From: a virus
Taxonomy: Duplodnaviria > Caudoviricetes
DNA length: 64,000 nucleotides
Reading direction: 5' to 3' (one strand)
Virus record (IMG/VR): IMGVR_UViG_2595698524_000001
Span: 96,001 to 160,000 of that record
Part shown: positions 36,326-55,715 of the stretch, one piece after another
Position numbering within the stretch: position 1 is the stretch's first letter
Layout of the letters: each line of letters opens with the position of its first letter
Notes under the pieces: model-generated
What the model saw: the letters and a program-made list of their open reading frames with translations, nothing else
What the model was told of the DNA's origin: nothing
The model's database searches: none
Made by a program: the position numbers and the translations under genes

Positions 36326-36867
36326 TCAGTTTTCCCCACGATGCCAATGTCTCTCAGCAGACCGTAGTCGAGGAATTGGTAGTCCCGGGCCAAGTCATAC
36401 TGCCAGACAAGATTGTTAACCTTTTTGTCGTCTGGGGTTTCAGTGGCCTCATTGAAGACACCAACCAAATCCCAGCACTCGAAATAGTTACACTGTTCCT
36501 GAGCATGACGAACAATCTTAATTTTGTTGTTCGGGAACGACTGCGCCAGAGCCACCAGAGAACCGATGCCCTTACCGTGTTTGGTACGATAAAGGATGGT
36601 CATCTTGGTCGCAGGCGTATCGAGGATACGCTGCTCCAGACCGGTGTTGCGCAGCTCAGCGTTAGCCAGTGAGTTATGGCCTTCTTCCACGCAGTCCAGC
36701 TCAACCATCACGTTCAGAGAATGACGGATCACCAGCTTCTTCACTGTTTCCGTGTAGTTCTCTGCTTTACACAGCAAAGACACGTCAAACAGTTTGTGCT
36801 TAGACAGGAACGCGTCAAGCAGCGTGGTATCAAGCCTCGTAAAATTGTGAATTAGCAATGACTTCAT
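36304..36867 (-). CDS. hypothetical accessory protein of the radical-SAM operon
   Basis: 187 aa, overlaps both neighbours. Confidence 0.75.
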   Translation of the reverse strand: MKSLLIHNFTRLDTTLLDAFLSKHKLFDVSLLCKAENYTETVKKLVIRHSLNVMVELDCVEEGHNSLANAELRNTGLEQRILDTPATKMTILYRTKHGKGIGSLVALAQSFPNNKIKIVRHAQEQCNYFECWDLVGVFNEATETPDDKKVNNLVWQYDLARDYQFLDYGLLRDIGIVGKTECLVIAK

Positions 36868-38188
36868 TGGTCTTTTCCTGAGATTTGTGTGCGTGAGGTT
36901 GTTCGTGCGTTACTGGTTCTGCAATTGCAGGCTTGGCCAGCTTAGGCAGTTTGTTTTCCTGCGAGGCGCGAACACGGCAGTCATAGCAGTTACAGGTCAG
37001 CTCTTTGAACTGATTACCGTAAGAACCAAAACGACGTTCCCACCACTGTGCAGTTAACAGTTTAGCCGTAGTCCAACCGCACTGACGACGTTCGCCGTGA
37101 TACTGCTTACGTGCTTCTTCTTCACCGTCGCCATTTTCATACGCGGCAGCTACGCAAGATGCACAGATGTGTTTCGCTGGGCAGCCCATACAAGCGTCTG
37201 GGTAAGACTTCCACTGAGTCTTAACTTCTTCCAGCAGTTTGCCGCCGTCGGTGTTAACGATTTCACGACCAACAAGCTTAGCAATTGCCTGACGGGTGGT
37301 TACCGTAGACATGAAGCGGTTACAGCCGTAGATGTTACGGTCGAAGCCGAGACAGGTCATGTGAACGGTCGTACCGCAGTGTGGGCGCAGACGGTCTGGG
37401 TTATAACGTACCTGATCGTCGTGCAACAGTTTTTCACGCCAGTCTGGGTTCCACAGGTCATCGACGTTCATACCGTTTGGAGTGATGTGCCCCATTTCAG
37501 CAGTCGGGTCTAAGTGCAGCCCTTTACCAATCCAGTATTCCAACACTTCAATCATCTGGTTAGAAATACCCAGCGCCATGTCACGAGGAATGATATCTTC
37601 AAATACCATGTTCCCGTAGATGGTACCACCGCCCGATTGGTCGATTAACGACTTCATGGATGCAGCGTAATGCTTGAGCGTGTCGTGGGTAAAGGTCGCT
37701 TTGATACCGAGGTCGTTAATCTTCATCGACTTCAGATAGTGATACCCTTCCAGCGCTTTCTCGTACGAGCCTTTGCGCGAGGTAGTGAAGATACGGTGTT
37801 TGTCATGCGTCTCCGGCAGACCATCAATCGATACGCCGATAGAGAGACGCTTATACCAGCGCTCGATAATAGAACGGTTCAGCGGCTTATCAAACAGCGT
37901 GCCGTTGGTGGAGATAGAGAACATGTACGGGCGGTTATCCCGCGCCGCCAGCTCTTCTGCAGTTTCGAACGCTGCAATCAGCAGCTTCGGCTGCAGGAAC
38001 GGCTCACCACCGATGATATCGATGATAGCACCATCCACACCCGGCTTACCTTTATCGCGGTCAAAGCAGGCATGGATAAAGTCAACCACGTCTTCAACGC
38101 GGTTGTTACGCGGGAACTTGCGCTCGTAGCAGTAATCGCAATCGAGGTTGCAAGACAGGTTGGTAACTATTTGGTACGTTACGTCCAT
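36830..38188 (-). CDS. radical SAM/SPASM-domain peptide maturase-like enzyme
   Basis: CNLDCDYC (CxxxCxxC), IIGGEPFL, STNGTL, VSIDG..ETHDKHR. SPASM-type Cys set: HCG...YGCNRF...CMGCPAKHICASC...RQC. Confidence 0.92.
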   Translation of the reverse strand: MDVTYQIVTNLSCNLDCDYCYERKFPRNNRVEDVVDFIHACFDRDKGKPGVDGAIIDIIGGEPFLQPKLLIAAFETAEELAARDNRPYMFSISTNGTLFDKPLNRSIIERWYKRLSIGVSIDGLPETHDKHRIFTTSRKGSYEKALEGYHYLKSMKINDLGIKATFTHDTLKHYAASMKSLIDQSGGGTIYGNMVFEDIIPRDMALGISNQMIEVLEYWIGKGLHLDPTAEMGHITPNGMNVDDLWNPDWREKLLHDDQVRYNPDRLRPHCGTTVHMTCLGFDRNIYGCNRFMSTVTTRQAIAKLVGREIVNTDGGKLLEEVKTQWKSYPDACMGCPAKHICASCVAAAYENGDGEEEARKQYHGERRQCGWTTAKLLTAQWWERRFGSYGNQFKELTCNCYDCRVRASQENKLPKLAKPAIAEPVTHEQPHAHKSQEKTNEVIANSQFYEA

Positions 38189-38198
38189 AATGGCCGCC

Positions 38199-39074
38199 TT
38201 ATGCTTGTGGCAAATTCAGGTAGTTATGCAGATACTTGTAAGCATCCACGCCGATGATAGAGGCTATTTTATTACAGCCTGAGTCCACTAACCATTCCGT
38301 GTTCTCACGCAGCCCAATATCCCCATTCGGTTCAACCATCTTCAGCTGACCACATGCGTTACAGTTCATGTTATCGAAGAACTTCTCTAAACGCAGTACC
38401 GTCGAGTAACCGTTCGCCGCGTTCATCTCAAACATCTGGGCTTCGAGCCGTTTCCATCCGTAGATGAAGTTCAGCACGTGGTCCTGATTGAGAGGTTTCG
38501 GCATTAACTTGTCGAACGTCAGCGATAACGCCGCCAAGTTAAGATGATGCAGAGAACTGTGCAGTTGAAGGATGTCTTCGTACCAGCGAGGTTTACTCAC
38601 CATCTCACGCGTCAATACGCCCCACACAGTAACCTTTTCCAGCTCATTGATTACTTCAAAAGCCTCTTGAGCACCTTCGTCAATGAATGCACGCAGGCTA
38701 CGCTCACCACCTTCGTACGCATCGATAGACACGACGATATGGTCAAACGTTTTCAAGAACTCAAGTTGCGACAACTTGAGTTTACGACCGTTGGTGAATA
38801 GCAGGTGTTTTGCGGAAGGAGCGCCACGCCGTGCTTCTTCAACGAAGTCAACCAACTTCGAATAGGAGAGCAGCGGTTCGCCACCAGTCCACAGGAATTC
38901 CTCTACCAGAGGATTTTCTTTTATAATGTCCACCATTGCCTCTTTATGTTTTGTTTTAGAGACATCGCCCTTAGCCATGTGAGCTGCCCCTCCACAGAAG
39001 GAGCAGTTTAAGTTACACTTAGCCGTTATTGCAACGTCAATCATCGTTGCGGATGATTTAGGGGTATCGTGCAT
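38199..39074 (-). CDS. radical SAM enzyme (short; reduced auxiliary domain)
   Basis: CNLNCSFC, WTGGEPLL, FTNG, VVSID. The C-terminus has only CNAC...GC. Confidence 0.9.
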   Translation of the reverse strand: MHDTPKSSATMIDVAITAKCNLNCSFCGGAAHMAKGDVSKTKHKEAMVDIIKENPLVEEFLWTGGEPLLSYSKLVDFVEEARRGAPSAKHLLFTNGRKLKLSQLEFLKTFDHIVVSIDAYEGGERSLRAFIDEGAQEAFEVINELEKVTVWGVLTREMVSKPRWYEDILQLHSSLHHLNLAALSLTFDKLMPKPLNQDHVLNFIYGWKRLEAQMFEMNAANGYSTVLRLEKFFDNMNCNACGQLKMVEPNGDIGLRENTEWLVDSGCNKIASIIGVDAYKYLHNYLNLPQA

Positions 39075-39999
39075 CCGGATTTTTTCCCCATTGCTTGCTC
39101 ATAAACGAGAAGAGCGGGTCATCTTTACGAACATCTTCGCCGGGAACAATGAGTTTCGGGTCATTATACGCCTGCAGGATGGCGTCTAAGATTTTATTCC
39201 GGCTATTGATTCCGTTAAGTTCTTTCAAACTTACTTCACGGCGGATGAACGAGTCCATTACATGCTGCTCTTCGTCCGAAAGGAGACCGGCCTCGTTGAC
39301 TTTACCCACCAAGAAGGTCATTACTCGGTGCAAGTCAGCTGTGGTATTCGGTTGCTCCCCGTACTCGCTTTGAATCAGGTAGTTCGTCCACGGTTTGCGC
39401 AGTCGCTTGGTAATCTCGTGTGCATCCGTAATCGCTTCCCATCTCATACTACGATGGTTCCACGTAATTTTATACGAATACGCCATGAGGTCAGCCAGCG
39501 TATCGATGCCGAGTTCTTCGTAACCATCGACCGCATAGTAGCGTTCGGTATTGAAGTAATCGTCATCTGGCACTTCATCGCAGTCAACAACGGTGTAGTA
39601 GAACGGGAAGGCTGATGGGTATTCCCAGTTCCAGCCGCGTTGAATCATCGGCTTCATGTTGTTTTCTTTAAACGATGCAAACAGCAGCTCCAGCGGTGGA
39701 GCGTAGTTAAGTACCGCATCGGTAAAGTAGTATTTGTCGTTCACTAATTTACCGACGTAGTCTGTCGTCGCACCGGTACACTTGATGATTTTCACATTCA
39801 GTGTGTCAGAGATGTTGAACTCTTCCAGTACCGTTGACTTATACAGAATGTCGCGAGGACGCAGACGTGGGAACTCAACCGGGTTCATTGCCAGCAAACG
39901 CAGACGGTCATTGACGTGGTCATTAACCGCGTCAGGTAGCCCGATGTGAATCGGGTAGTTGAATGTAGTTCGGAATGCGTAATGCGCATTACTCTTCAT
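39058..39999 (-). CDS. hypothetical accessory protein of the radical-SAM operon
   Basis: 313 aa, AGGAG RBS, overlaps the downstream rSAM gene. Confidence 0.8.
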   Translation of the reverse strand: MKSNAHYAFRTTFNYPIHIGLPDAVNDHVNDRLRLLAMNPVEFPRLRPRDILYKSTVLEEFNISDTLNVKIIKCTGATTDYVGKLVNDKYYFTDAVLNYAPPLELLFASFKENNMKPMIQRGWNWEYPSAFPFYYTVVDCDEVPDDDYFNTERYYAVDGYEELGIDTLADLMAYSYKITWNHRSMRWEAITDAHEITKRLRKPWTNYLIQSEYGEQPNTTADLHRVMTFLVGKVNEAGLLSDEEQHVMDSFIRREVSLKELNGINSRNKILDAILQAYNDPKLIVPGEDVRKDDPLFSFMSKQWGKNPDARYP

Positions 40000-40010
40000 G
40001 AAAGAACTCC

Positions 40011-40220
40011 TTACGAAGGCCAGGTCACAGCTTTCGCGCCACCTGAAGACGTCCAGCTACAACTACCATTACAACGATAGCTGCCTGCTGCAATATTGTT
40101 TAAACGATTGGAGTTATTAACGGTACCGCGGGTAGCAATGTAGTTAATCGCACTAGCGGTGGTGATATAACCCTCAATCCTCGCGAGTTGCTGTCCAACC
40201 TCGTTTAATGAAACAGCCAT
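40011..40220 (-). CDS. Cys-repeat precursor paralog C (truncated core)
   Basis: MAVSLNEV leader, core RCNGSCSWTSSGG, GGAGGT RBS. Confidence 0.85.
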   Translation of the reverse strand: MAVSLNEVGQQLARIEGYITTASAINYIATRGTVNNSNRLNNIAAGSYRCNGSCSWTSSGGAKAVTWPS

Positions 40221-40232
40221 GTGACCTCCCTA

Positions 40233-40634
40233 CTACGGTCCAGAACAGCCGGAACAACCCCCAGAACATGACCCGGAACAGTTACCAGAGCATCTGCCTG
40301 AACACGTACCAGTACACGTACCAGAACACGTACCAGAACACGTGCCTGTGCAACCACCGGAACAACCACCCGCGCAACCACCTGAACAGCTCGACGAACA
40401 GCTAGAGCCACAGGTTGCACTACAGGTTCCGGTACAGCCGCCAGAACAGCCTGCGGAGCAAGTCCAGCTACACGTACCTCCGCAGTGGTAATAGTTCGCG
40501 TCATGACCTGCTAAGCGGTCTACGTTATTGGTAGTCTTGCCCGCAATGTACGATTGGACACCGGCTTCGGTTTTCAGAGCAGCGGCTTCAATGTTGTCCA
40601 GTTGGCCTTTTACAGCGTTTAATGAGACTGCCAT
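40233..40634 (-). CDS. Cys-repeat (Cxxx)n precursor protein B, 133 aa, 21 Cys
   Basis: MAVSLNAV leader at ATG 40634 with GAGG RBS. Core CGGTCSWTC...CSGNCSGSCSGGCSGCSGP. Confidence 0.9.
   Translation of the reverse strand: MAVSLNAVKGQLDNIEAAALKTEAGVQSYIAGKTTNNVDRLAGHDANYYHCGGTCSWTCSAGCSGGCTGTCSATCGSSCSSSCSGGCAGGCSGGCTGTCSGTCSGTCTGTCSGRCSGNCSGSCSGGCSGCSGP
40302..40345. repeat. 12-bp tandem repeat within precursor B
   Basis: ACACGTACCAG(T/A) three times plus a partial copy; encodes CSGT/CTGT units. Confidence 0.8.
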
Positions 40635-40645
40635 GGTAATCCCCT

Positions 40646-41038
40646 CTATTGTGGCCCCGAACATCCGCCTGAGCAACTTCCTGAGCAGTTACCTGAACAC
40701 GCCCCACCACAACTCCTGCCACAAGCACCAGAACATGATGAAGAACACGCGCCGCCGCACGTACCCGTACAGCTACCTGAGCAACCTCCCGAGCAAGAAC
40801 TAGTACACGTGCCAGAACATGACCCGGAGCAGTTACCGGAGCAGCTGGAACAACCGTGGGAACAACCTGAAGAACAAGACCAACTACAACTACCGTTGCA
40901 GCGGATTTCTCCGGGGGACATCCCGCCTAAATTATTTGCGTTATACGCTTTTGTGGCCACCTGTCCATCAACCGAAGCGCCAGTTGCAATAGACAGTCTG
41001 GCCATACGCGCATTAACGTCATTGAGTGAAACGGCCAT
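40646..41038 (-). CDS. Cys-repeat (Cxxx)n precursor protein A, 130 aa, 21 Cys
   Basis: MAVSLNDV leader, AAGGA RBS. Core CNGSCSWSC...CSGNCSGSCSGGCSGPQ. Confidence 0.9.
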   Translation of the reverse strand: MAVSLNDVNARMARLSIATGASVDGQVATKAYNANNLGGMSPGEIRCNGSCSWSCSSGCSHGCSSCSGNCSGSCSGTCTSSCSGGCSGSCTGTCGGACSSSCSGACGRSCGGACSGNCSGSCSGGCSGPQ

Positions 41039-41052
41039 ATGCTTCCTTTAAC

Positions 41053-41079: not shown

Positions 41080-41093
41080 TGACGTTATAAGAG

Positions 41094-42293
41094 TTACTTG
41101 GTGCCGGCAGCAGACTGAACGTCGCCGCGGGTAGTCAAGTTGGCGTTGACGTGTACGTTGGCTTGTACGACACCACCCGTGTTCTTGTTCAGATACTGGT
41201 CGTGCGGGTTCGCCGCCGATTTGTGGGCTGCGAGGTCAGCGTTGGTTTTCGCCAATGCCTGTTCCAAGGCCGCGATGCGATTTTCGAGACCTTGGTTCGC
41301 TGTGCCCATATCCGCAATCTGCTGCTTCAGGTTATTGGTTTCCTGATTAGCGGCTGCGAGTCCAGCACGCAGGTCATTGAGCTGCTGAGTCAGCAGACCG
41401 ACTTGCGTTTCCAGAATGAGAATCTCATCCATCAGTTCCGCAATCTGTAACTGCGTTTTCTGATAGTTCTGGTCAACCGTGTTGAGCTGGGTATTCCATG
41501 TGCCGATAGAACTGACCAGCGCTGCGATTTTCTGCGCCAAGTCGGTATCGGTCGCATTGAGCGTACCGATATCTTGCAACACGGAGTTGATGCTGCTTTG
41601 CACGTTCTGAATCAACGTACGGACTTCTGACGTGGAGTACACGTCAAGTTGGCCACGCGTCACTTTGTGAACGTTGCCTTCCGCATTACGGTGCTCATCT
41701 AACGCCGCCAGCATCTCTTGACGATACGCTTTGAGCATGTTCTGAATCTGCACCATTTCCGCAGACGCGCCCAAACGAATCGCTTCGTTGAGTTTCGCCA
41801 GCAGGGTAACGATGTATTCAAAACCAAAGAAGTCGCCCACGTCACGGAACGCAGGCGCACCTGCAAACTCATCCGGCACGTTACGGAGTTCATAGAAGTC
41901 GATAGTTGGGTCATCGAGTTCCAGTGATTCAATACACTGGACGATGTTATCGACGTTCGCTGCGTACGGACCACCGACAATGTGGGCGCTGGCGGTGATG
42001 TCGGACGGTACAGCCGAGCGAGTAACAACAATAGCAGTTGCCACTTCGCGGCCACCGGTCATTTTAGTCAATGACGGATGGAGGAGAATTACTTCGTAGT
42101 CGGTACCGCGAACGAGTGGTTTATTCGGCGCGTTCACCGGAGCTAATCGAAGCGTATCAACAAAGAAAGGACCTGTTGGGAATGCAAACGCCCGGTTAAT
42201 CGTTCCTGTGCCGAGTTTAATCGGGTGAGAAACGTTGTTACCGAGGATGGTTCCGAACAGGTCCAACGGGTACTGCATTACTGCCTTACTCAT
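41094..42293 (-). CDS. virion / tail-fibre-like protein with a long coiled coil
   Basis: N-domain (YP.D..G...N, PFF, L..G.DY) shared with the three large fibres; heptad region; AHKSAANPHDQYL motif. Confidence 0.8.
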   Translation of the reverse strand: MSKAVMQYPLDLFGTILGNNVSHPIKLGTGTINRAFAFPTGPFFVDTLRLAPVNAPNKPLVRGTDYEVILLHPSLTKMTGGREVATAIVVTRSAVPSDITASAHIVGGPYAANVDNIVQCIESLELDDPTIDFYELRNVPDEFAGAPAFRDVGDFFGFEYIVTLLAKLNEAIRLGASAEMVQIQNMLKAYRQEMLAALDEHRNAEGNVHKVTRGQLDVYSTSEVRTLIQNVQSSINSVLQDIGTLNATDTDLAQKIAALVSSIGTWNTQLNTVDQNYQKTQLQIAELMDEILILETQVGLLTQQLNDLRAGLAAANQETNNLKQQIADMGTANQGLENRIAALEQALAKTNADLAAHKSAANPHDQYLNKNTGGVVQANVHVNANLTTRGDVQSAAGTK

Positions 42294-42313
42294 CGGAAAA
42301 CTCCTTGTGGTGA

Positions 42314-42343: not shown

Positions 42344-42347
42344 TTGT

Positions 42348-45300
42348 TTACGCGCTCAGGGTGGAATCATGAATCATAACATCAAGGACAACCGCGGTAG
42401 TCGCATCGTAGTAGATGTCGATATACCGGCCTCCTGCGAAGCTACGTTCCTCCGTCCAGAACATCACTGGGGCTTTGGTAATGGCTGCAGACTGACGCAG
42501 GGCCAGCATGTAGTCTTTACCCGTAGGCACGGTCAACGTGTACAGGCCGATAGCAGCACTGCCCGGAATAGAAGCAGGGGAAGCCGGGTTGGGTAACTTA
42601 ATCGCACCTAATGACGTACTTGAGGTAGCGAGTTTCGTTGTCCCATCCTGCACTAATTCAAACGCCACATACGTCGGTGAATTACCTGGATTTTCTCTTA
42701 CGACAAGCGCCAACGAGTTGGCTTGATTCAGCAACGCCCCGGTCAGTGTAACCGTTTGCGTAGCTGATGCGTTGTACGTAGTAGTCCCCTGCAACACACC
42801 GTTCAGGTATACACTACAACCGTCGTCGCTATTCACATTCAACATTAAAGAGTTGCTTGTTGGTGTGAAAGTTGTTTTTACAGCGAACACCTCGCCCGCT
42901 GCCAACAACTGAGCATATGGGCGAATCGCTGGCGATGCTAACGGACTGCTATACGCGTTGGTCGTCTGCATTGCAGGTGGCCACAGCTTTTCAGCATTGT
43001 TAGCTAGCAACATCCACGACGCGGTTATCGCAGGCAGGCTCACACGAGTGATGTTATCGAAGTTACCGGCGAGCTGGTTCGCTGTTTCCAGCGCCGCAGC
43101 AGTGCCGTAAGTCTTCGACAAATCCGCCCCCGGACGGGTGATGTTCCAGAATCGTGCCGCGTTTTGAGATGTAGCCCCGTAGCCAAAACGACAAGTGCGG
43201 GCAAATGTCGGGGCTGCAGTGGCCAAGTCAATCTCAACGTATTTGTACGTTGCAGAGTTACGCACCTGGCTCATCGACAACGTTTTCTTCGCCGCCACGA
43301 TTTGTCGGATGTTCGTGTCACGATCACCGGTTGTTGGCAATTGTGCATGTTCAACCGCAATATACAGCATGTTACCGCGCCGTTCAGCGTAGACATGCGC
43401 ATACCACTTATTCCACCCCAGTAAATCGGTGGTCGAAGTGTCTAAGGTGGCGATCGCCCGAGAAGATGACTGTCGGTAGTTTTCCTTAACCTGTATCCGA
43501 GACTGTAAATCAAGGTGCCCCTCGATTGAGTTACCGATAGCTAAGCAAAGCGTTTGTTCGCGCCCTACCGACGAATCTTCCTTCTTCAACGCAGCCAGCA
43601 CAATCGCGATGGCATCATTATCAGTGTCGTTAGAAGTGATAACCGTGTTAAACGTGTAATCACCAACCAGTTCATCCGAAATAAACCCAACGAACGTCAC
43701 TGTGTTCAACGTACATTCAACCACATCATCCGCGTCGATATATTTCCATGCTACGAGTTCAGACTCGTTTGCAGGCTGGGCCGACGTCGAGTTGTTGTGA
43801 CTGAAACGGTACCAGCTGTTGTAGATATCCTGGAACGACGGGAATGAGAACGTGTCGATGGTACCCATGTTCTCCATGTTCGAGTAGATAGACTCGGTCA
43901 AGGTCCCGCCTGCCAGATATCCGTGCGCGTACGGGTTGTCCGCGTGCGCCAACAGAGAACCAACTCGACCCAAACGTTTCACACGGTTGATGTTGACTTC
44001 AACGATAGCGTTAGTCGACGTCACCACGTACCCGATATAGAGGCGCGTAGCAGTGTCGCTAAGCAACGTTTTGGAAACGCTGTACTCTGCCTTACCTTGT
44101 GCGTTTAACTGCACGTAGAAGTACAGTGTGGCGTTCTGGTAGTCGCTTGGGAACAACGCTTTGAAGTCAAATTGCGAGGCTGGCGTATTGTGCTCTTCCA
44201 TGTTCGCAAAGAACGGAATGTCCTGCGTAATGTAAAGAATCATCCCCTCGGCCAGCTGTGGTCCGAACAGGATCACGTTACGTGCACTGCCAGTGTTGTA
44301 ATTACGACTGTTGTTGCTAAATGCTTGACCGCCGTAATACATCCCACCAGACAAGAACGTACCAACCAGAATCTCGTTCGTTTCAGGCAGATGGACAACG
44401 TCGCTTTCGCCATAGGACGGGTTAACCATTTCTCGGTTAAACGTCCAGTTTGCCATGTTCGCATCGCATGTCAACGTGAAGGTCATGTGACCCCCGCCAC
44501 CGACAGTCGCACAATGACATTGCGCATGAGGACGGATAATCCATCCGTCACTGCGTTTAATTAAACGCAGCTGCCAGTAATCCCCTGCATTGCTGATACC
44601 CGTCCACGCGAAATCGATACGGTCTTCGTTACCAATGTGCACCGCGTTGCTGTAATCCAGCGCCAGTACGTTGTTAACGAAGGTCATTGGGATGCGGAAA
44701 TAGTAGACGTACGCATACGTGACACCGTCCGCTTCTTTCTGACCAAACATCGCCGTAGCGATACACATGTTTGTACCGCCCAAATCAAACAGGTTTAACC
44801 AGCTTGTTTTGAAGATACTCGCCGCTTGTCCCCACTTCGCCACACGGGTCGTCAGCATCGACTGGAAATCATTCCACATCGCAGCATTAACAGTCACTGT
44901 GTCGTTGTGCAGCACTGCAGAACCGTTAATGTTTTTGTAATTACTGCTCCCAGCGGAGTTAAAAGCGGCCCCGTTGAGGTAATTACTGTTGCCGTTGAAG
45001 ATGTAGGCACAGCGGGTTAACACGTTGTACGTTGACTCGTTAAACGCGGTACGGTCATTCGAAGGACCCCAACCACCATAGCCCGGGAAGTTGTAAGAGC
45101 CTGCGGTGTCGTAAGCTATCTGGGCGCAATCGCTGGTACCCAGACGGCGCATCAGCACCTTTTTAACCGTGTTACCCAGCTGCACTAAACCACGCATGCG
45201 ATGTTGGTACACTGAGCCGTACGCCCCGTTTACTGCCATCTGGACACCCATCCGCCCGGTCAGCGGATTATCCCAACGCAGCGCATCGTACAACGACTTG

Positions 45301-48050
45301 CCGTTAAGACTGATACGCACACACTGGTTGTCACTGTTACTGTTGTCGTTACCGATACAGTCAATGTAACCAGCGCGGGGTGCGGTGGAGATGATCATAT
45401 TCCCGTAGAGGAAACCGTCAGAGTTGTCGGTGTGGTAATTCCCACCATTATCGGTGACACCGTTCTCGTCGAGTTTCATCGGCAGGTAATCGTTATCCAG
45501 TACCGCAGTCTTCGCATCGAGGTCGATAACGAAAGAAATCTGCCAGCGGGTACCGAAAGCAGTTGCGGAGTTCGAAACGTGTGTACTACAGTTTCCACGC
45601 ACACGAATCTTACGACCATTACGTCCAAGCATCCAGTTGCGACGTGCAGAGTGCACCACGTTGCGCGCACCTGTCCACTTCGCAGCACCCGCATCGGTGA
45701 TGTAGTAGAGGCTGGTCGTGGCCGGGTCTTTCGTATTCAGCGCATAGGTCGCAAAACGACCCACGTTACCATCGGCGTGTTTACCGGTCAGTTTGACAGA
45801 CTGGAACTGTACGTCTGTCTTACTGAGATCGTCTTTGCTGATAGACCACAGGCACGTAAAGAACTCCGTGTTGGTCAACGTGCTCTTAATGACATAGATG
45901 TCGTTATCGATAACCATCAGATAATCATCACTCGGTGTCGGAGCGAAGTTATACTGATTGGTTGCCCGAGGGGTCGGGGAATATGTCACACGAACGATGT
46001 CGGTATGCTTCGCAGCATCCGCACTACCGTTAAACATCACCAGATAGTAACGGTCGTCTGTGCCTAAGAAGATAGCACAGTCGTCGCCACAAACCACCAC
46101 GCGTTTAAGCTCAATACCCGGATACTTCTTCGCCATCCCCGCAGGAACGTACTGTACTGCTGTGGCCACATAATTCGAGGATAGGTTATTGGAACCCGCT
46201 TCGAACTCACGGTACCAATAGAACACGCGCTGCGAATCAGCATAACCGTCCCAACCGTTACGCAGAATGTAGAGACGGTTGTCTTGTTCAATCTGCATCG
46301 CGTTAAAGTTAGCATCGATCACAGACGCTGTCCCTTCATACTGCCCCATTGTTGGGATAGGCAGGAACCCGGAATCACCGTAGTAGGTGCTGTTCGCCAC
46401 CCAGCTCGGTAGCAGGTTCAGTGCTTTGTCTTCCGCAGCATCGATATCCAGTTTTAACTGGTAACCGAGTTTGGAGACCGCCGCTTTATTAGTCGTGGCA
46501 TCCAGCACCGTATACAGATACGTTAAGCCGGAAACCGTCGGCGAGGCAGTGGGTACGTTTTGCAAATCACTGGCAGTATGCGTGTGAACCTTCAGCGCTT
46601 TGTTGGTCAGCGCATCACGGAACGGCTGATGTACAGGCTTATCGGCGGGGGCGGTGTTGTTGACTTTATCCAGACCGAAAGACGCTGCGGTCAAGTTAAT
46701 CGTCTGCGTTGCACCGAAAGACGCTCCGTTGATTTTGAACGTCTCATCAACGTAGTTATTCAGTTTCAGCAACAGGTTGTTCACCCCTTTCTGCGAGAGC
46801 GCATAATTCGGAGCAATAACCTCAACACTGTCCGTCAGACGGAACAGGCCCTCAGTCGTCAGGGTCGCTGCCGGAGGGTTAGCCGTCATGTTTAACGGAG
46901 AGGCCTGTGAACCGTTACCACCCATACGCACCGTGTCAGTCGACTTAAAGGTCGGCTGCGCGTTGGAGTTCAGAGGGGCATACAAGTACAACCCTACTGA
47001 GTCAGGAGTAATCAAGAACGCACCGTTATAAATCGGACGGACGTCTTTGGCACCGGTTGCATTACCTTTGGACGGAACGAACAGCTCATCGTAACCCGCA
47101 CGTGAGGAAACCCCAATACCGCGCTGGTTATTATCGCTGTCAGCAGCCAGTTCAATCACCGCTTCTGTTCCGGTCAGGAGAATCTTACCCGCACTAAAGC
47201 GCAGGGCGGATTTCCCGTCTTGGGTCGCGTACACCACTTCGTCATTGTTAATCGCTTTGAAACGACCGAACACCTGACCCATGGTGTCATCAATCAACGT
47301 ATCGACGATACGCTGAGAGATTTTATTCTCGACCATAATCGCTACTAACTGCGCCAGCGTCTTACTGAACGCTTTGATGGCATTCGTAGCAGCATCACCT
47401 ACACCTAACGCCCCAATTTGGGCAGGGGTGTATTTGTGCTGATGTGGCGTTTTGTGGTGCTGTAACAGTTTGTCTGCATACAGTTTGTTCGCTGCGCGAG
47501 AGAGCGCCTTAATAGCCGTATCGATTTCAGTATCAAGCTGGCCGGCTTTCTCTTCGAGCTTTAAACGGATGTTGTTGATGGCTGCCGCAACCTCATCACG
47601 CGCAATGGCCTCGTCGATATTCGTCGGCGGGTCAATAGGCTCGATGGGAATTTGGTAGCGCATCAATGCTGACCAATCGATGTTGCGTGGTTCGGTCAGG
47701 TCGGGGTTAACGAGGAACTTGCCGATATCCGATTCAGGAACGGAATAAGACGAGCCGAGCACCTGCAGCTTATAGGTAATCTCGGTTTTCGTCAGCAGCA
47801 TTATCCCGCCGAAAAGCTGGGCATTCGCGGCGTGTGCACCGGCAGAGTAATACAACGCGAGGTAATAGTCGATACCTTCAAATAACAGATTCCCCGCCGT
47901 ATCTTTAATCTCTAATCCGTTACGAAAGAAGGGTGCCTCGAAAGGCACCACTAAGTTGAAACGGTTAGGATAAGTCGACGTACTGAGGGAACCTTCCGCG
48001 ATGTTATCGGGGCTTGTACCCGTCAAATCTTCGGGATAATGTTTTCTCAT
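42348..48050 (-). CDS. large tail fibre / receptor-binding protein (1900 aa)
   Basis: Shared N-domain; H...PH..T..QIGA; GLDKVNNTA.ADKP and HTH fibre repeats; beta-rich middle; C-terminal NSDDG..VYLNG (PA14-like) domain. Confidence 0.85.
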   Translation of the reverse strand: MRKHYPEDLTGTSPDNIAEGSLSTSTYPNRFNLVVPFEAPFFRNGLEIKDTAGNLLFEGIDYYLALYYSAGAHAANAQLFGGIMLLTKTEITYKLQVLGSSYSVPESDIGKFLVNPDLTEPRNIDWSALMRYQIPIEPIDPPTNIDEAIARDEVAAAINNIRLKLEEKAGQLDTEIDTAIKALSRAANKLYADKLLQHHKTPHQHKYTPAQIGALGVGDAATNAIKAFSKTLAQLVAIMVENKISQRIVDTLIDDTMGQVFGRFKAINNDEVVYATQDGKSALRFSAGKILLTGTEAVIELAADSDNNQRGIGVSSRAGYDELFVPSKGNATGAKDVRPIYNGAFLITPDSVGLYLYAPLNSNAQPTFKSTDTVRMGGNGSQASPLNMTANPPAATLTTEGLFRLTDSVEVIAPNYALSQKGVNNLLLKLNNYVDETFKINGASFGATQTINLTAASFGLDKVNNTAPADKPVHQPFRDALTNKALKVHTHTASDLQNVPTASPTVSGLTYLYTVLDATTNKAAVSKLGYQLKLDIDAAEDKALNLLPSWVANSTYYGDSGFLPIPTMGQYEGTASVIDANFNAMQIEQDNRLYILRNGWDGYADSQRVFYWYREFEAGSNNLSSNYVATAVQYVPAGMAKKYPGIELKRVVVCGDDCAIFLGTDDRYYLVMFNGSADAAKHTDIVRVTYSPTPRATNQYNFAPTPSDDYLMVIDNDIYVIKSTLTNTEFFTCLWSISKDDLSKTDVQFQSVKLTGKHADGNVGRFATYALNTKDPATTSLYYITDAGAAKWTGARNVVHSARRNWMLGRNGRKIRVRGNCSTHVSNSATAFGTRWQISFVIDLDAKTAVLDNDYLPMKLDENGVTDNGGNYHTDNSDGFLYGNMIISTAPRAGYIDCIGNDNSNSDNQCVRISLNGKSLYDALRWDNPLTGRMGVQMAVNGAYGSVYQHRMRGLVQLGNTVKKVLMRRLGTSDCAQIAYDTAGSYNFPGYGGWGPSNDRTAFNESTYNVLTRCAYIFNGNSNYLNGAAFNSAGSSNYKNINGSAVLHNDTVTVNAAMWNDFQSMLTTRVAKWGQAASIFKTSWLNLFDLGGTNMCIATAMFGQKEADGVTYAYVYYFRIPMTFVNNVLALDYSNAVHIGNEDRIDFAWTGISNAGDYWQLRLIKRSDGWIIRPHAQCHCATVGGGGHMTFTLTCDANMANWTFNREMVNPSYGESDVVHLPETNEILVGTFLSGGMYYGGQAFSNNSRNYNTGSARNVILFGPQLAEGMILYITQDIPFFANMEEHNTPASQFDFKALFPSDYQNATLYFYVQLNAQGKAEYSVSKTLLSDTATRLYIGYVVTSTNAIVEVNINRVKRLGRVGSLLAHADNPYAHGYLAGGTLTESIYSNMENMGTIDTFSFPSFQDIYNSWYRFSHNNSTSAQPANESELVAWKYIDADDVVECTLNTVTFVGFISDELVGDYTFNTVITSNDTDNDAIAIVLAALKKEDSSVGREQTLCLAIGNSIEGHLDLQSRIQVKENYRQSSSRAIATLDTSTTDLLGWNKWYAHVYAERRGNMLYIAVEHAQLPTTGDRDTNIRQIVAAKKTLSMSQVRNSATYKYVEIDLATAAPTFARTCRFGYGATSQNAARFWNITRPGADLSKTYGTAAALETANQLAGNFDNITRVSLPAITASWMLLANNAEKLWPPAMQTTNAYSSPLASPAIRPYAQLLAAGEVFAVKTTFTPTSNSLMLNVNSDDGCSVYLNGVLQGTTTYNASATQTVTLTGALLNQANSLALVVRENPGNSPTYVAFELVQDGTTKLATSSTSLGAIKLPNPASPASIPGSAAIGLYTLTVPTGKDYMLALRQSAAITKAPVMFWTEERSFAGGRYIDIYYDATTAVVLDVMIHDSTLSA

Positions 48051-48054
48051 TTAC

Positions 48055-51000
48055 TTATTCCTTTTCGAGCGCCACCTGTTGAATAGCAAACTCCCAGTTG
48101 CGCTGGGTGAGGTTCCACGGGTTTTGCATGGCAATAGTCGGGATATCACCGTATTCGGTAACGAACCAATCGGTATTGTTCGTCACAAACGTTTTGGTGC
48201 TATTGTCGTTGTACGTGATGGTAAACCGCGCTTTGACAAACGGTGTCGGCGCATTCGCAGTCGGACGACAGATAATGCTGAACACCCCTTTAGTGTCGGC
48301 GTTAGCTACAATATTGGCATTTGCCGTAAGTGTACCTGCGTTCCCCACCAAATCCGCGGCGAATACGTTCGCACCGTCAATAAGAGCCCCAATCGAACCT
48401 TGACCGGAAATCGCGACCGCTACTGACTTCGCATTCGTCAACAGGTCAGGTTTGTATGCAACCATTACAAACCCGCGACGTGAGATATAACCCAGACTGT
48501 AGGAGGACAACGACGTATCTCCAACATTGAGCATCTCATAAGCGACTTGCGGTACACGACCCTGCGTTAACAGACGCGAGGACTTCGGCCACATCGCATG
48601 CGGGACGGCATACGTGGCGCACTCATGTACAATGCCGTTAGCCTGCTCAGTAGTGATGACCTGTGTCGCCAACTCCATCGCCGCAAAGTCATTTGCACCG
48701 TAGTGCGCAGCCTTACCACGATGTAGCCCGTTCTGTTTTGCAGCATAGGCCGCTAACTCCGAACCACGGATATAGGACTGAATCAGCCCCGTATGGTAGT
48801 TCAAACGGTTCAGGTACTGTGGTGCGATAGAATGGTCGAAGAGAGACCCCATCAGACGGTAACCGGTTTTCGCTGAAGATGAATAGCCCACGAATGGACC
48901 TTCAAAGAAGCGGGACAGGTCTTGCTCGAACACCAGTGAGCAGAAACGATGTACCTCAGTACGCGTCGCATCACCCACTGCACCAATCAAGATGTTCAGT
49001 CGCTTCTCTGCCGGAATATAGCGATAACGAATCGCCAGCACCCGCGGCTTCTTCACACTAACCCCGTTGACGTGAGGTGGGAAGTTAAAGCTTGCAGCCA
49101 CATCGGTCTGTTCCTCGCGGACAAACGAAATCAAGTTCGTCCGTGGGATATCGGTAAACGGTAACGCAACCGGTTGCGGTGTGACTTCATTAACGAACGC
49201 AATCGAGGCTTGTCCGTCTGCGGGAACATCAATCGCGTACAGAGACAACACTTCATGACGACCGTTAATCGCAGTAGCTACGAACTCCAACACGCCTGAC
49301 TCGTTCGCCATGAATGAACCATCGTAGGTGACACGATTATTCGCCTGAGGGTTTGCCATGTTCTTCCAGCGATACGGAGACTGACCATCAACCCCAACCC
49401 AAACCCGTAACGGGGCAGCGGCGGCCGCGCCTTCTGCAACAACCAGCGTTCCCTGTGTACGTAATGTCATCCCTGCTGCGTCCGAGAACATGGCCACATC
49501 TGGCGCAGACGTCACTGACTTATCAGCAACACCATACGCTTCTGTGTTCTCCAGTCCAATCACTTTAACGTTAGCCGGGCTGTACTCTGGGCTGTTGATG
49601 TCCACGGTGTCGTGAGCATCCGGGTCTTCCATGTGGGTCTGCAGCTCTTTGAACTGGCCAAAGTCGATAATCTGACCGAACTGGATTGGGCCTCCCGAAG
49701 TGATAACTCCAGCATCGTTAGTATCAACGTGGCCTAAGTAAATCATCTCGGTATTAACTGCCCCTCCCGGTAGTGGAGAGCCTAACGCTTGGAAGCGTCC
49801 GCGCAGCACGTTACCGTAGATAAAGAAGCGGTTATTCTGCGCAGGTAGGTATGCACCAATTTCACCTACTGGGGTATTCGCGCTAGAGTTATAGATTAAC
49901 GAACCGCCATCCTGCACGTCGAATGCAACTGACGCGGGTTTGCTCGTGTCTTCACACAACGCACTGACCGCAATGACGTGGGTACCCGGTTCTAACCAGA
50001 ATTCTACTTCTGGGTTGTCCTGAGCATCCGCCATTAAGTTCTCGTCAATCCAGATAGAGACCTTCCCACTGGAACGAGCACGTACCTTAATCGCTTCGTC
50101 CGCGAACTTCATACGGACTTTGGCAGCAACAATCAGACCCGCCGTGCCCACTTTACCTACAGCAGTAGAGACTGCCTTTGCCTGAGGTAACGGGTTAGTC
50201 GGTTGAGTGGTATGTACAAAGCCGAGTTTCCAGCTTTTCTCTACGCCACAACCGATAGCATACCACAGGTTGGCAGGGACTTGGGTCAAATCGACCGCAC
50301 CGTCAAAAGTCCCTTCTGCTGAGTCCAGTGCGCGGGCTACGAAATAACGATACGTGGTAGTCGGGTTCAGTGTCCAACCGCTGACGTTAAACGTAGTCGC
50401 TTCTACCGTGGTGAATTCCAGCGTATCGCGGAACATTACCCCGAAGAAACGTTTGTTCAACTCAAGCAGTCGGTCGTTCAGTCCTTTCAACACTGCAGGG
50501 GCAACAGCCTGACCATCTTTCACCTCACTGTACGTGGACGCAATCTGAACAGTACCATACGCTTGACGCGTGGCCTGTCCAATTCGCAGCATTGGCCAGT
50601 CGTGTTTGTGGTTCTTTGCCACCAACGCATCAGTACGGGTTTTCTGCGGCGTAGAGAGCGGCTTGTTCAAGTCAGCCGTGTTGTCGACGGAGGCCAGATC
50701 TAAATCTGACTTATCGAGAACAATCTCTGTGCCAGACATCGGGTTGTTGTTAATGAGCACGTTCTTAGGAACCATGTCATTAAAGCCGTCATTATACGGC
50801 TTACCCGAATCCGGCGTCGCGGCCACGCCGTCAGCAACAGCGCCTGTACCAGAAACCAGTTTAACTTTACCCGGCACGGTTTTGGTGGCTTTCGGGATAT
50901 TCAACGCGCCTTCTAACGGAGAAGATGGCGTACCCTTGCCTTTGAACGTGATGTTCGTTGACTGGGCATTAAGCTGGACGTTTTCCGGGTCGCCGTTAAC

Positions 51001-52077: not shown

Positions 52078-52088
52078 TGCTGAATCCT

Positions 52089-55000: not shown

Positions 55001-55715
55001 AGTTGGCAGCGGTCGCCGTTTGCATACCCGGTAAATAGAACTCGCAAGTATACAGGTAGTCGGACACTGCAAAGCCTGAGTAACTACCAAAGTCGAAACG
55101 ATAATCACTGTTGTTAGTAAAGGCGTGTCTGCCGGTAGGGGCATCAAAACGCACACCGCCGTGTGAATAATCCTGCACGTAACCTTGCGCAGTAGTGACG
55201 GTTAACGGGTCTTTCTTAGGCGGCTTATATTTCAGCCCTTCGGCCAGCACACCTAAGGCGTCCATCAGCTCACGTTCACCGCACCAGTTATCCCAATCAA
55301 ACTGGATATCTACCGGTGGAAAATACGGGTCACCGACGACGTCTTCCCAATATTTATCAGTGAAGACGGTATTCCCGGCAATAAAAGCAGTTTTTTGTGC
55401 TGCCGTAGCAGCATTAATACCTACTGGATGGTAGGTCACTGTCAATGCACGGGAAACTGAGTCGTCAATAACCAAAATAGCGCCGTGAATACGGCGAGCT
55501 GTACGCAGCACCCCGGTGGCGTACGGCAACACTTTATAATAGTGCACCTGCTCTTGGAGTTCTTTTGTACCATCGAAAAGCTTAAACTCGAGGTCGGTAT
55601 AATACGGACCGTGAGTCGGGAAAATAAGTCGCGGGCCGGTAGCAGGCAGAGTTTGTGCTTCTTTTGTCTGCACGTTTTCCGCTACTGTCCCATGTGGATC
55701 AAACACGACAGACAT
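52089..55715 (-). CDS. tail fibre protein (1208 aa)
   Basis: Shared N-domain; HILRKDNPH; HTH and ATTTVKGTVKL repeats; C-terminal lectin-like beta domain. Confidence 0.85.
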   Translation of the reverse strand: MSVVFDPHGTVAENVQTKEAQTLPATGPRLIFPTHGPYYTDLEFKLFDGTKELQEQVHYYKVLPYATGVLRTARRIHGAILVIDDSVSRALTVTYHPVGINAATAAQKTAFIAGNTVFTDKYWEDVVGDPYFPPVDIQFDWDNWCGERELMDALGVLAEGLKYKPPKKDPLTVTTAQGYVQDYSHGGVRFDAPTGRHAFTNNSDYRFDFGSYSGFAVSDYLYTCEFYLPGMQTATAANFSIFFNNSWSSNFVDCRLIYDYATQKFKVTLNRRENSAYTSWEIASFAFPKAKFAKAFKVRISRNRAQNGFELYISNADGIIGKLVYNHNNPPASLLNVYTNYGIAARLAGATDIRTSVGVKLNGYMQIIDCPGFEADISEDTLGLLKTWYNLLRASFDQAPAHDHILRKDNPHDEEAGWIGALVRNGISADAVRAYGRTLPQLTTYVNSLAPTQNSLLSKVRREVSSRLLKGTIVGVEGLTQFTQGSDANNIRILAKFDKLQSWLIARNDNVSVTAAQYIDIKSGTGVLRLYNDARGLTWNNAKLLTHDTIGPYIPQGGAAALGFVGVSTATITLTGKGIGSNPFVATWQAPSAADVNTLAMRLVTDDFGTSSALAATPALIAKLAANFTGKLLKDKANINGIKLAGSITLSKSMYGLSEVVDISDILMPMSDAMEALIADYEDNPNHTHPASMFGITTATTTVKGTVKLGGIENDNTVVLDGREVLEQKARLDQVDTLSSDTMTPAVINILRYGTSGAGFVEGVEFEDFMVSIPANFYYCGDRRAVPAVSYNLIDLFPGAYTNKTFYLYVDVTSTGTAVHSISATRRQENDTLTEIGEVTTDGDTIYRANVYNVTRLGNFREFEEHVENPSAHIEKVADKNSLGLSSVRNIPASISNYKVGFTNGIRDWQGIFGNASWTQTGQQLMFASYGTGQNAVIGLAHSQKQADYTMRGTISTDSTADNGGWLGWLLAYRKVKTEEHTLSVIANPDVGGWANDSGQPVIHAVVIDAGKGTQIVVPGVTGRSTTQKLSQLVVKPATITRVGNVFTVQLGAVSSLDAISDTFVIDLDALTVTASNSNGQSKMTQLGPLLRSKGIATDFFHGSVLTGVLGLYKSKSTYTFQLHPAVDNTKLYSTLGSLVDNVSPLGKVRVAKGTLTSATLAQSALEAQVGTPVLPTLDGRGIKYSAINCSYYSLNTAYTMLMVRSTK

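What the first reader, a model, noticed from the sequence alone, without database searches (positions are those of the whole stretch)
40233..41038. Precursors A and B keep identical core geometry (21 Cys over 80 residues, one CxxC stutter each) despite diverged sequence
Counted from the translations: A has Cys47 to Cys126 and B has Cys51 to Cys130. Each has 21 Cys with 19 CxxxC intervals and exactly one CxxC, but the stutter sits after Cys5 in A and after Cys20 in B. Both cores start C(N/G)G(S/T)CSW and contain CSGNCSGSCSGGCSG near the end. Spacers are almost only G/S/T/A, and the leaders are clearly diverged. Low-complexity repeats normally drift in length. Inference: equal length and Cys count suggest selection for a fixed-length structure, for example two chains pairing in register in a hetero-oligomer, or a ruler set by the maturase.
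Basis: partly seen in the sequence, partly recalled or inferred. Interest (0 to 1): 0.8.

Follow-up and report, generated by a model that had tools for sequence, protein, structure and literature searches.

The report
Phage cysteine-ladder proteins with fixed rungs
A giant phage related to Salmonella phage SPN3US carries, among its tail-fibre genes, three small sister proteins with a cysteine at every fourth residue next to two radical-SAM enzymes, and one of them keeps exactly 21 cysteines in every relative examined even though its length drifts.

Summary
The counts are correct. A (40646-41038, minus strand) and B (40233-40634, minus strand) each have 21 Cys in an 80-residue core with one CxxC step.

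Across the window and 39 related loci, covering five genera of SPN3US-like jumbo phages, A has 21 Cys in 40 of 40. Its core length ranges from 75 to 80 residues, with 7 spacing patterns. B has 21 Cys in 6 loci and 23 in 6. In the other 28 it has 20 Cys, with alanine at the 21st position.

So the conserved quantity is the cysteine number, not the length. The 80/80 equality occurs only in this window.

A, B and a short third paralogue C sit between the tail-fibre genes and two radical-SAM genes. This is a distant phage version of the catalogued but uncharacterised CXXX-repeat target system. Distant relatives fuse the same module to tail-fibre N-domains, so these are probably modified virion-associated proteins rather than secreted peptides.

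An unrelated lineage shows the same behaviour: 18 Cys in 17 of 21 proteins.

In-register A/B pairing is untested, and the 21/23 clade weakens it. This scan has noted similar phage cassettes on other DNA. My searches found nothing in print.

The parts
40646..41038 (-). Protein A: 130 aa. A 46-residue N-domain is followed by a 21-Cys ladder (80-residue core, CSSC step after Cys5) and the tail SGPQ.
   Evidence: phrog_6085 E 5.3e-35. TIGR04114 31.5 bits against a cut-off of 20. 21 Cys in 40 of 40 loci. All 21 Cys columns invariant.
40233..40634 (-). Protein B: 133 aa from the ATG at 40634. A 50-residue N-domain is followed by a 21-Cys ladder (80-residue core, last step CxxC) and the tail SGP.
   Evidence: phrog_6085 E 9e-38. 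TIGR04114 33.7 bits. Orthologues have 21, 23 or 20 Cys plus an Ala position.
40011..40220 (-). Protein C: 69 aa. It has the same N-domain and junction motif (CNGSCSW) but only 2 Cys, followed by a 15-residue tail.
   Evidence: phrog_6085 E 1.6e-23. Present after B in 40 of 40 loci, with 2 core Cys in 12 loci and 4 in 28.
39058..39999 (-). 313-aa accessory protein of unknown fold (phrog_8030), always between C and the radical-SAM genes.
   Evidence: phrog_8030 E 1.2e-141. tblastn found it in 60 phage records, all SPN3US-like. AF2 pLDDT 83.7. No PDB match at E <= 0.001. Best VIA Z 5.2 over 52 residues.
38199..39074 (-). Small radical-SAM protein, 291 aa, with the motif CNLNCSFC.
   Evidence: PF04055 E 8.2e-12. 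phrog_1802. All NCBIfam hits fall below their cut-offs.
36830..38188 (-). Radical-SAM/SPASM-type maturase, 452 aa, with the motif CNLDCDYC and a C-terminal Cys cluster CMGCPAKHICASC.
   Evidence: PF04055. Best NCBIfam hits are PapB at 117.6 bits (cut-off 340) and TIGR04115, the CXXX-repeat maturase, at 112.9 bits (cut-off 350). The only solved relative by sequence is 5wgg_A, E 1.2e-07.
41094..42293 (-). 399-aa virion structural or fibre protein with a long coiled coil, directly upstream of A.
   Evidence: phrog_2163 E 5.7e-100. Coiled-coil type Pfam hits, all below their cut-offs.
42348..55715 (-). Three giant fibre or baseplate candidates of 1900, 1340 and 1208 aa. They share the phrog_2163 N-domain with the 399-aa protein.
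   Evidence: The SPN3US counterparts gp168-170 are listed as 'Baseplate/tail fiber candidate' in passages of PMC5694885.
34905..35663 (-). Tail assembly chaperone, which closes the module downstream. Two unknown genes at 35669-36867 lie between it and the maturase.
   Evidence: phrog_1158 E 1.8e-63.

Best explanation
A, B and C are three old paralogues of a phage 'cysteine-ladder' module. The module is a ~50-residue N-domain ending in a conserved junction (N-x3-L-x-G-x5-Y-x-C-x-G-x-C-S-W), followed by a Gly/Ser/Thr tail with a Cys at every fourth, sometimes third, residue.

**Shown.**
- They lie in the late tail-fibre operon of an SPN3US-like jumbo phage, directly upstream of an accessory protein and two radical-SAM enzymes.
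- The gene order A-B-C-accessory-rSAM-rSAM holds in all 40 loci.
- A keeps exactly 21 Cys while spacer lengths change.
- B mostly keeps 21 Cys positions.
- A and B share their C-terminal peptide within a phage, although the codons differ.

**Inferred.**
- The SPASM-type enzyme, helped by the small radical-SAM protein and phrog_8030, modifies the ladder in the reducing cytoplasm. The most likely chemistry is sulfur-to-carbon (thioether) bridges from each Cys to a nearby spacer residue.
- This would turn a floppy tail into a stiff, redox-insensitive rod.
- The N-domains dock the proteins, possibly as an A/B/C hetero-oligomer, on the fibre or baseplate apparatus.
- Selection acts on the number of rungs (modification sites), not on residue length. 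The 80/80 equality in this window is a coincidence of one CxxC step in each protein.
For: **Counts and conservation**
- Counts and spacing.
- A has 21 Cys in 40 of 40 loci, with 7 spacing patterns and cores of 75-80 residues. All 21 Cys columns are invariant.
- B has 20 invariant Cys columns plus one Cys/Ala column, and a 2-unit insertion in one clade.

**Purifying selection despite near-saturated silent sites**
- Window against closest relative, A: 42 identical, 52 synonymous and 24 replacement codons.
- 12 of 21 Cys codons differ between TGT and TGC.

**Length changes seen**
- All length differences among A orthologues are single-residue spacer changes. The tree places them on several branches. 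None removes or adds a Cys unit.

**Independent lineage**
- In the P0030 family, 17 of 21 proteins examined have 18 Cys, with 7 spacing patterns.

**Link to radical-SAM enzymes**
- TIGR04114 is passed by A and B. The 452-aa enzyme hits TIGR04115 and PapB best.
- In two metagenomic loci a third radical-SAM gene sits between A and B.

**Structural rather than secreted**
- The flanking genes are fibre candidates and a tail assembly chaperone.
- No peptidase or exporter family was found in the 16 neighbouring proteins scanned.
- In 3 of 11 distant relatives the phrog_6085 module follows a tail-fibre or minor-tail N-segment (phrog_5073 E 3.6e-05 and 2.8e-06; phrog_4120 E 2.9e-07).

**Shared C-terminal 15-mer in A and B**
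- 12 of 15 codons differ, including Ser AGT against TCA.
Against: - No chemistry, expression or virion data exist for any of these proteins. In the passages I read, the SPN3US virion proteome paper does not mention them, and its supplements were closed.
- The maturase scores far below the cut-offs of TIGR04115 and PapB.
- The cores hold no Asp or Glu, the acceptor used by PapB, so the acceptor residue is a guess.
- All 40 loci belong to one clade of related phages, so part of the constancy could be shared ancestry.
- The DNA repeat units are degenerate (60-76% identical; TRF arrays of at most 6.9 copies at 72-84% matches). This lowers slippage without any selection.
- B tolerates 23 Cys and a Cys-to-Ala change, so the count is not absolute.
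- The AF2 model of A has no confident structure (pLDDT 40.3).
- phrog_8030 has no recognisable fold.
Confidence: 0.55

Rival explanations
1. A and B pair rung for rung in a hetero-oligomer, by cross-links or shared metal sites, so both must keep the same number of Cys and the same length.
For: - A and B have equal counts of 21 Cys positions in 34 of 40 loci.
- Core lengths differ by at most 2 residues outside one clade and correlate: rho 0.84 to 0.89 on 8-9 patterns.
- A and B share both the junction motif and the C-terminal peptide within a phage, although the codons differ.
- All three paralogues are kept in all 40 loci.
Against: - In 6 loci A has 21 Cys and B 23, with B's core 9 residues longer.
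- In the window the shared 15-mer is one rung out of register.
- CxxC steps lie at different rungs in A and B in every phage.
- In 28 loci one B position is Ala.
- The length correlation is not phylogenetically independent.
- No model of the complex could be made.
Confidence: 0.25
2. There is no selection on number. The constancy reflects common ancestry and a low slippage rate, because the DNA units have decayed.
For: - Unit-to-unit DNA identity is only 60-76%, and TRF arrays are short.
- All loci come from one clade.
Against: - Silent sites are close to saturated even against the nearest relative, while every Cys is kept.
- Spacer length differs between A orthologues at several rungs without any Cys unit being lost or gained.
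- A 36-nt tract 92% identical between out-of-register parts of A and B shows that exchange between units does occur.
- B did gain or lose 2 units.
- An unrelated lineage also keeps its count: 18 Cys in 17 of 21 proteins.
Confidence: 0.12
3. A, B and C are precursors of a classical leader-core RiPP. The leader is cleaved and the core is released as a bacteriocin-like or metal-binding peptide, unrelated to the virion.
For: - They have a leader-plus-core appearance.
- The maturase resembles PapB and SCIFF-type enzymes.
- Bacterial CXXX-repeat systems noted earlier in this scan carry Tat signals and exporters. Those are unchecked notes.
Against: - No peptidase, exporter or immunity family was found among the 16 neighbours scanned.
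- The cassette always lies inside the tail-fibre module.
- The 'leader' is homologous to an internal segment of longer proteins with tail-fibre N-domains.
- C has almost no core yet is conserved in 40 of 40 loci.
Confidence: 0.1
4. The maturase acts as a ruler and processes a fixed number of repeats, so precursors drift towards that number.
For: None beyond the constancy of A.
Against: - The same enzymes in one phage serve A with 21 Cys, B with 20 to 23 and C with 2 to 4.
- The abstract of PMC10739248 describes PapB as highly tolerant of substrate variation.
Confidence: 0.04

Closest known systems
CXXX-repeat radical-SAM target system (NCBIfam TIGR04114 target repeat, TIGR04115 maturase)
   Same: - A Cys-every-fourth repeat, which passes TIGR04114 in A and B.
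- An adjacent radical-SAM/SPASM-type enzyme whose alignment covers model positions 4-336 of 359 of TIGR04115.
- A second radical-SAM gene and a small partner protein in the cassette. The bacterial side of this comparison rests on unchecked scan notes.
   Different: - The enzyme scores 112.9 bits against a cut-off of 350.
- The system is phage-encoded, lies inside a tail-fibre operon, and has three paralogous targets sharing an N-domain.
- It has no export signal or exporter.
- The accessory protein phrog_8030 has no match.
- My searches found no experimental description of the family's chemistry.
PapB/PapA (freyrasin) ranthipeptide system
   Same: - It is the best-scoring characterised maturase family (117.6 bits, E 6.7e-34).
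- Its substrate has repeated short Cys-containing motifs that are cross-linked one by one. PapB makes Cys-Asp thioethers (abstract of PMC10739248).
   Different: - The score is below the equivalog cut-off of 340.
- The phage cores contain no Asp or Glu.
- There are 21 sites rather than a handful (the latter is recalled, not checked here).
- The setting is structural rather than that of a secreted peptide.
CteB (PDB 5WGG/5WHY), SCIFF-type thioether maturase
   Same: It is the only solved structure found by sequence, matching the radical-SAM core at residues 12-172 with E 1.2e-07.
   Different: - Only the core domain aligns.
- TIGR03974 (SCIFF maturase) scores 46.7 bits against a cut-off of 425.
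- That 5WGG is CteB is recalled. The tool lists it only as 'Radical SAM domain protein'.
Phage cysteine-ladder fibre proteins noted earlier in this scan (e1-5647423, e1-5674324, e1-5823563, e1-5745852)
   Same: A radical-SAM enzyme and a CxxxC-ladder protein lie beside tail-fibre genes, and the ladder follows a conserved N-domain.
   Different: - Those are gut-phage lineages with single long proteins of 18 to about 40 Cys.
- Here there are three short paralogues in cultured Enterobacterales jumbo phages, two radical-SAM genes and an invariant count of 21 in A.
- Those notes are unchecked AI notes.

Membership tests
CXXX-repeat radical-SAM target system (TIGR04114/TIGR04115) | The target carries the Cys-rich CXXX repeat and scores above the TIGR04114 cut-off of 20 bits. 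| tested here: met
   A scores 31.5 bits and B 33.7 bits. C has no hit.
CXXX-repeat radical-SAM target system (TIGR04114/TIGR04115) | The adjacent maturase scores above the TIGR04115 cut-off of 350 bits. | tested here: not met
   112.9 bits, E 2.2e-32, aligned over model positions 4-336 of 359. It is a distant relative, not a member by NCBI's threshold.
CXXX-repeat radical-SAM target system (TIGR04114/TIGR04115) | The radical-SAM CX3CX2C cluster motif is present in the enzyme(s). | tested here: met
   CNLDCDYC in the 452-aa protein and CNLNCSFC in the 291-aa protein (translations). PF04055 is above its cut-off in both.
CXXX-repeat radical-SAM target system (TIGR04114/TIGR04115) | The cysteines are post-translationally modified by the enzyme. 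| not testable with these tools
   This needs mass spectrometry or NMR of co-expressed proteins.
PapB-type ranthipeptide system | The maturase scores above the NF047865 equivalog cut-off of 340 bits. | tested here: not met
   117.6 bits.
PapB-type ranthipeptide system | The core has Cys-X3-Asp/Glu acceptor motifs. | tested here: not met
   The cores of A and B contain no Asp or Glu (composition). The Cys-Asp chemistry is taken from the abstract of PMC10739248.
Classical leader-core RiPP | The cluster contains a leader peptidase and/or an exporter, and the leader is removed. | tested here: inconclusive
   No peptidase or transporter family was found in the 16 neighbouring proteins scanned. phrog_8030 and two further genes have unknown function. 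Cleavage itself is not testable here.
Phage tail-fibre or virion-associated protein | The gene is encoded inside the tail-fibre/baseplate module. | tested here: met
   It lies between phrog_2163/7449/8078/7557 fibre candidates and the phrog_1158 tail assembly chaperone, on the same strand. The order is the same in all 40 loci.
Phage tail-fibre or virion-associated protein | The protein is homologous to, or fused with, recognised tail-fibre domains. | tested here: met
   In 3 of 11 distant relatives scanned, the phrog_6085 module follows an N-segment matching phrog_5073 (tail fiber protein) or phrog_4120 (minor tail protein). None of the 11 had a Pfam hit.
Phage tail-fibre or virion-associated protein | The protein is present in purified virions. 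| not tested
   The passages of PMC5694885 that I read do not mention these genes, and its supplements were closed. In the SPN3US RefSeq record A and C are not annotated and B is annotated in another frame. A proteome search against that annotation could therefore not have found them; this last point is an inference.

The most novel reading that the evidence does not exclude
SPN3US-like jumbo phages build part of their tail-fibre or baseplate apparatus from a hetero-oligomer of A, B and C. The Gly/Ser-rich tails are converted by phage-encoded radical-SAM enzymes into a thioether-stapled rod with a fixed number of rungs: 21 in A.

This would be the first enzymatically installed radical-SAM cross-link in a virus particle. 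It would also be a case where selection counts modification sites rather than residues.
Probability: 0.3. Interest if true: 0.85.

Novelty: new variant of a known kind. Interest (0 to 1): 0.6.

Why it matters
Radical-SAM peptide cross-linking is known from secreted natural products, not from virus particles. The CXXX-repeat family has database models, but my searches found no described chemistry or function for it.

Here the system sits in cultured, genetically tractable phages. SPN3US has an amber-mutant collection according to the abstract of PMC5694885, and there are many Erwinia phages. The chemistry and the role of the ladder can therefore be tested directly.

The invariant count of 21 Cys, with an independent lineage fixed at 18, gives a sharp and cheap prediction: changing the rung number should hurt. 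It also gives an unusual example of a low-complexity repeat whose copy number is held constant while its length is not.

There is a practical consequence as well. A, B and C are missing, in the wrong frame or on the wrong strand in several public records. Proteomic work that relied on those annotations could not have detected them.

Tried and rejected
- **Homologues by leader words.** The search for homologous proteins with residues 1-52 of A found no candidate.
- **IMG/VR with one protein.** A scan with the single phrog_8030 protein found nothing. An alignment then gave 17 loci.
- **Single-chain AF2 of A.** With a 28-sequence alignment it gave pLDDT 40.3 and pTM 0.17, with two weak helices in the N-domain and no structure in the core. 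This is uninformative in either direction.
- **Fold of phrog_8030.** Foldseek against PDB gave no match at E <= 0.001. VIA-align wide gave a best Z of 5.2 over 52 residues. No function could be assigned.
- **N-domain inside the big fibre proteins of the window.** An HMM of 73 distinct N-domains hit only A, B and C among the window's ORFs; the next best E was 0.18.
- **Pfam.** No hit on A, B, C or phrog_8030, nor on 11 distant relatives. PF27846 appears only as a precomputed label.
- **Recent gene conversion as the cause of the shared A/B C-terminus.** Rejected for the 15-mer, where 12 of 15 codons differ. A 36-nt, 92% identical tract between B's end and rungs 6-8 of A shows that short exchanges do happen.
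- **Multiples of three (21 = 7x3, 18 = 6x3).** Considered and dropped because counts of 19, 20 and 23 also occur.
- **gp172.** The 7-kDa virion protein gp172 of SPN3US is not C: by gene order from gp168 (the 5.2-kb gene) it lies elsewhere.
- **Literature searches.** Searches found no paper on this cassette. For most hits I saw only the listings.

Full report
**1. What is there**

The window is bases 96001-160000 of a 223,989-base virus record estimated 99% complete. Its nearest named relatives are Erwinia phages of the genus Derbicusvirus, at about 77% nucleotide identity over 36800-42300.

On the minus strand lies a late operon, in this order:
- a baseplate assembly protein;
- three giant fibre or baseplate candidates of 1208, 1340 and 1900 aa;
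- a 399-aa coiled-coil virion protein that shares their N-domain (phrog_2163);
- A (40646-41038), B (40233-40634) and C (40011-40220);
- a 313-aa protein of unknown fold (phrog_8030);
- a 291-aa radical-SAM protein;
- a 452-aa radical-SAM/SPASM-type protein;
- two unknown genes, a tail assembly chaperone and an endolysin.

Only three copies of the A/B/C family exist in the genome.

**2.

reproduces every count.
- A has Cys47-126 and B has Cys51-130.
- Each has 21 Cys in 80 residues, with 19 CxxxC steps and one CxxC step. The CxxC step follows Cys5 in A and Cys20 in B.
- Both contain CSGNCSGSCSGGCSG, and their spacers are almost only G, S, T and A.

That start is supported by a GAGGGG Shine-Dalgarno-like site and by all orthologues.

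The Cys frames are the real genes. Against the closest relative, A has 52 silent and 24 replacement codon differences in 118 codons, B has 47 and 25 in 122, and C has 31 and 9 in 69. All three match phrog_6085. A and B pass NCBIfam TIGR04114.

**3. Orthologues: the number is fixed, the length is not**

I fetched three sets of loci.
- 22 of the 60 phage records that encode phrog_8030.
- 17 IMG/VR loci.
- With the window this makes 40 loci and 28 distinct A/B pairs, from Derbicus-, Wellington-, Seoul-, Machina- and Erskinevirus.

All 40 loci have A, B and C in that order.

| Protein | Cys count | Core length | Spacing patterns |
|---|---|---|---|
| A | 21 in 40 of 40 | 75-80 | 7 |
| B | 21 in 6 loci; 23 in 6; 20 plus an Ala position in 28 | 76-80, or 89 in the 23-Cys clade | 9 |
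| C | 2 core Cys in 12 loci; 4 in 28 | – | – |

- The CSSC step after Cys5 is present in every A.
- In the 17-sequence alignment all 21 Cys columns of A are invariant.
- The 23-Cys form of B, in the Wellington-like clade, carries an 8-residue insertion of two units.
- 80/80 occurs only in the window. Other pairs are 78/79, 78/78, 77/79, 76/76, 75/76, 75/77 and 80/89.

**4. Is the constancy more than ancestry?**

Four observations argue for selection.
- Silent sites are close to saturated even against the nearest relative. 12 of 21 Cys codons differ in A, yet no Cys is lost.
- Every length difference among A orthologues is a single spacer residue. The tree of the three enzyme and accessory proteins (31 distinct loci) places these changes on several branches. 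No whole Cys unit is gained or lost in A.
- Exchange between units does occur. A 36-nt tract is 92% identical between B's C-terminal rungs and rungs 6-8 of A.
- An unrelated lineage behaves the same way. It is the roughly 211-aa P0030 family from metagenomes, whose N-terminus matches tail-fibre PHROGs. 17 of 21 proteins examined have 18 Cys with 7 spacing patterns; the other four have 19, 19, 20 and 21. Of the 25 hits, I left out the four most distant.

Three observations argue the other way.
- The DNA units are degenerate, at 60-76% identity, and TRF finds only short arrays. Slippage is therefore intrinsically rare.
- All 40 loci belong to one clade.
- B shows that the count can change.

Across the wider family, a profile search found 611 proteins at E <= 0.001. 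Among the listed hits of at most 320 aa, Cys ladders reach up to 36 cysteines. The number is therefore specific to a lineage, not universal.

**5. Co-variation of A and B**

Cys number cannot co-vary, because A never changes. A stays at 21 where B is 23.

Core lengths correlate: Spearman 0.89 on 9 patterns, and 0.84 on 8 without the 23-Cys clade. The patterns are not independent. The signal comes largely from the C-terminal rungs, which A and B share within a phage but which differ between phages:
- the window has CSGNCSGSCSGGCSG in both;
- EarlPhillipIV has CSGSCSSSCTGCS in both;
- L038 has a 20-residue identical end in both.

In the window 12 of the 15 shared codons differ, including Ser AGT against TCA. 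This is therefore not a recent conversion. It points to selection for matching ends, whether for a common partner, a common enzyme or each other.

**6. What it is**

The pairing of a CXXX repeat with a SPASM-type radical-SAM enzyme is the catalogued TIGR04114/TIGR04115 system. The 452-aa enzyme hits that model and PapB best, but far below their cut-offs (112.9 of 350 and 117.6 of 340 bits). Only the radical-SAM core matches a solved structure, 5WGG.

Several points argue that the 'leader' is a structural N-domain rather than a cleaved leader.
- No peptidase or exporter family was found in the 16 neighbours scanned.
- C keeps the N-domain and junction with almost no core, in all 40 loci.
- In 3 of 11 distant relatives the whole module follows a tail-fibre or minor-tail segment.
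- The junction motif (N-x3-L-x-G-x5-Y-x-C-x2-3-C-S-W) and a CSSC landmark recur in those distant proteins.
- In two metagenomic loci an extra radical-SAM gene lies between A and B.

My reading is therefore as follows. These are small tail-module proteins whose Cys ladder is modified by the adjacent enzymes, most likely into thioether bridges. That would give a cross-linked rod made in the reducing cytoplasm. The modification, its chemistry and the location in the virion are all inferred.

**7. What could not be settled**
- Oligomer modelling was not available.
- The monomer model of A is unstructured (pLDDT 40.3).
- phrog_8030 gives a confident model (pLDDT 83.7) with no convincing structural relative.
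- In the passages I read, the SPN3US virion proteome paper lists gp168-170 as baseplate or tail-fibre candidates and does not mention the cassette. Its supplementary tables, which were closed, might.
- In the SPN3US RefSeq record A and C are unannotated and B is in another frame.

**8. Novelty and verdict**

My literature searches found no description of this cassette or of the chemistry of CXXX-repeat systems. Earlier notes from this scan report similar radical-SAM plus Cys-ladder modules beside tail-fibre genes in gut phages. The general kind has therefore been seen before on other DNA.

New here:
- the three-paralogue arrangement in cultured SPN3US-like phages;
- the strict 21-Cys count of A;
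- the finding that rung number rather than length is conserved, with an independent lineage as a control;
- the matched A/B termini.

I rate it a new variant of a known kind, with interest 0.6.

Noticed in passing
L005 (SPN3US RefSeq) 9997-11026; also L002, L008, L010-L012, L014, L017, L018, L021: Public records often miss or misplace these genes. In SPN3US, A and C are unannotated and the CDS over B is in another frame. Several Erwinia phage records annotate ORFs on the opposite strand across A and B.
   Followed up: partly
L035 1892-2803 (same in L036): A third radical-SAM gene (303 aa, CNLDCSFC, resembling the small 291-aa enzyme) is inserted between A and B in two metagenomic relatives.
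   Followed up: no
protein P0129 (210 aa): A C-type protein continues past its usual end into a further domain of roughly 140 residues. Its N-terminal 66 residues differ by one residue from C of L029. It matches phrog_6085 only over residues 1-75. It may be a fused form or a frameshifted gene call.
   Followed up: no
window 40261-40296 and 40812-40847: A 36-nt tract is 92% identical between B's C-terminal rungs and rungs 6-8 of A, whereas other unit pairs are 60-76% identical. This suggests occasional short, out-of-register exchange between the paralogues.
   Followed up: partly
window 39058-39999: phrog_8030 gives a confident AF2 model (pLDDT 83.7, pTM 0.79) with no PDB match at E <= 0.001 and a best Z of 5.2 over 52 residues. 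tblastn finds it only in SPN3US-like phages (60 records).
   Followed up: partly
window 41094-55715: The 399-aa protein and the three giant proteins (1900, 1340 and 1208 aa) share an N-terminal domain, phrog_2163 positions about 10-229. They form a family of four fibre-like paralogues upstream of A.
   Followed up: no
A rung 5 (window, protein A residues 63-66); clade-II B rung 3; P0030 family rung 9: A CSSC step followed by (S/T)G(x)C recurs as a landmark in A of all 40 loci. It also occurs in B of 28 loci and in most members of the unrelated 18-Cys lineage, where a few have CASC or CTSC. The window's B lacks it.
   Followed up: partly
L003, L004, L007, L025, L026, L038: protein C: In the Wellington-like clade, C carries an extra Cys inside the N-domain (GTCNNTNN). 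This is the same clade in which B has 23 Cys.
   Followed up: no
proteins P0005, P0009, P0018: Database representatives of B- and A-type proteins leave the Cys frame part-way through and continue in unrelated sequence. These are probably frameshifts or assembly errors in repeat DNA.
   Followed up: no
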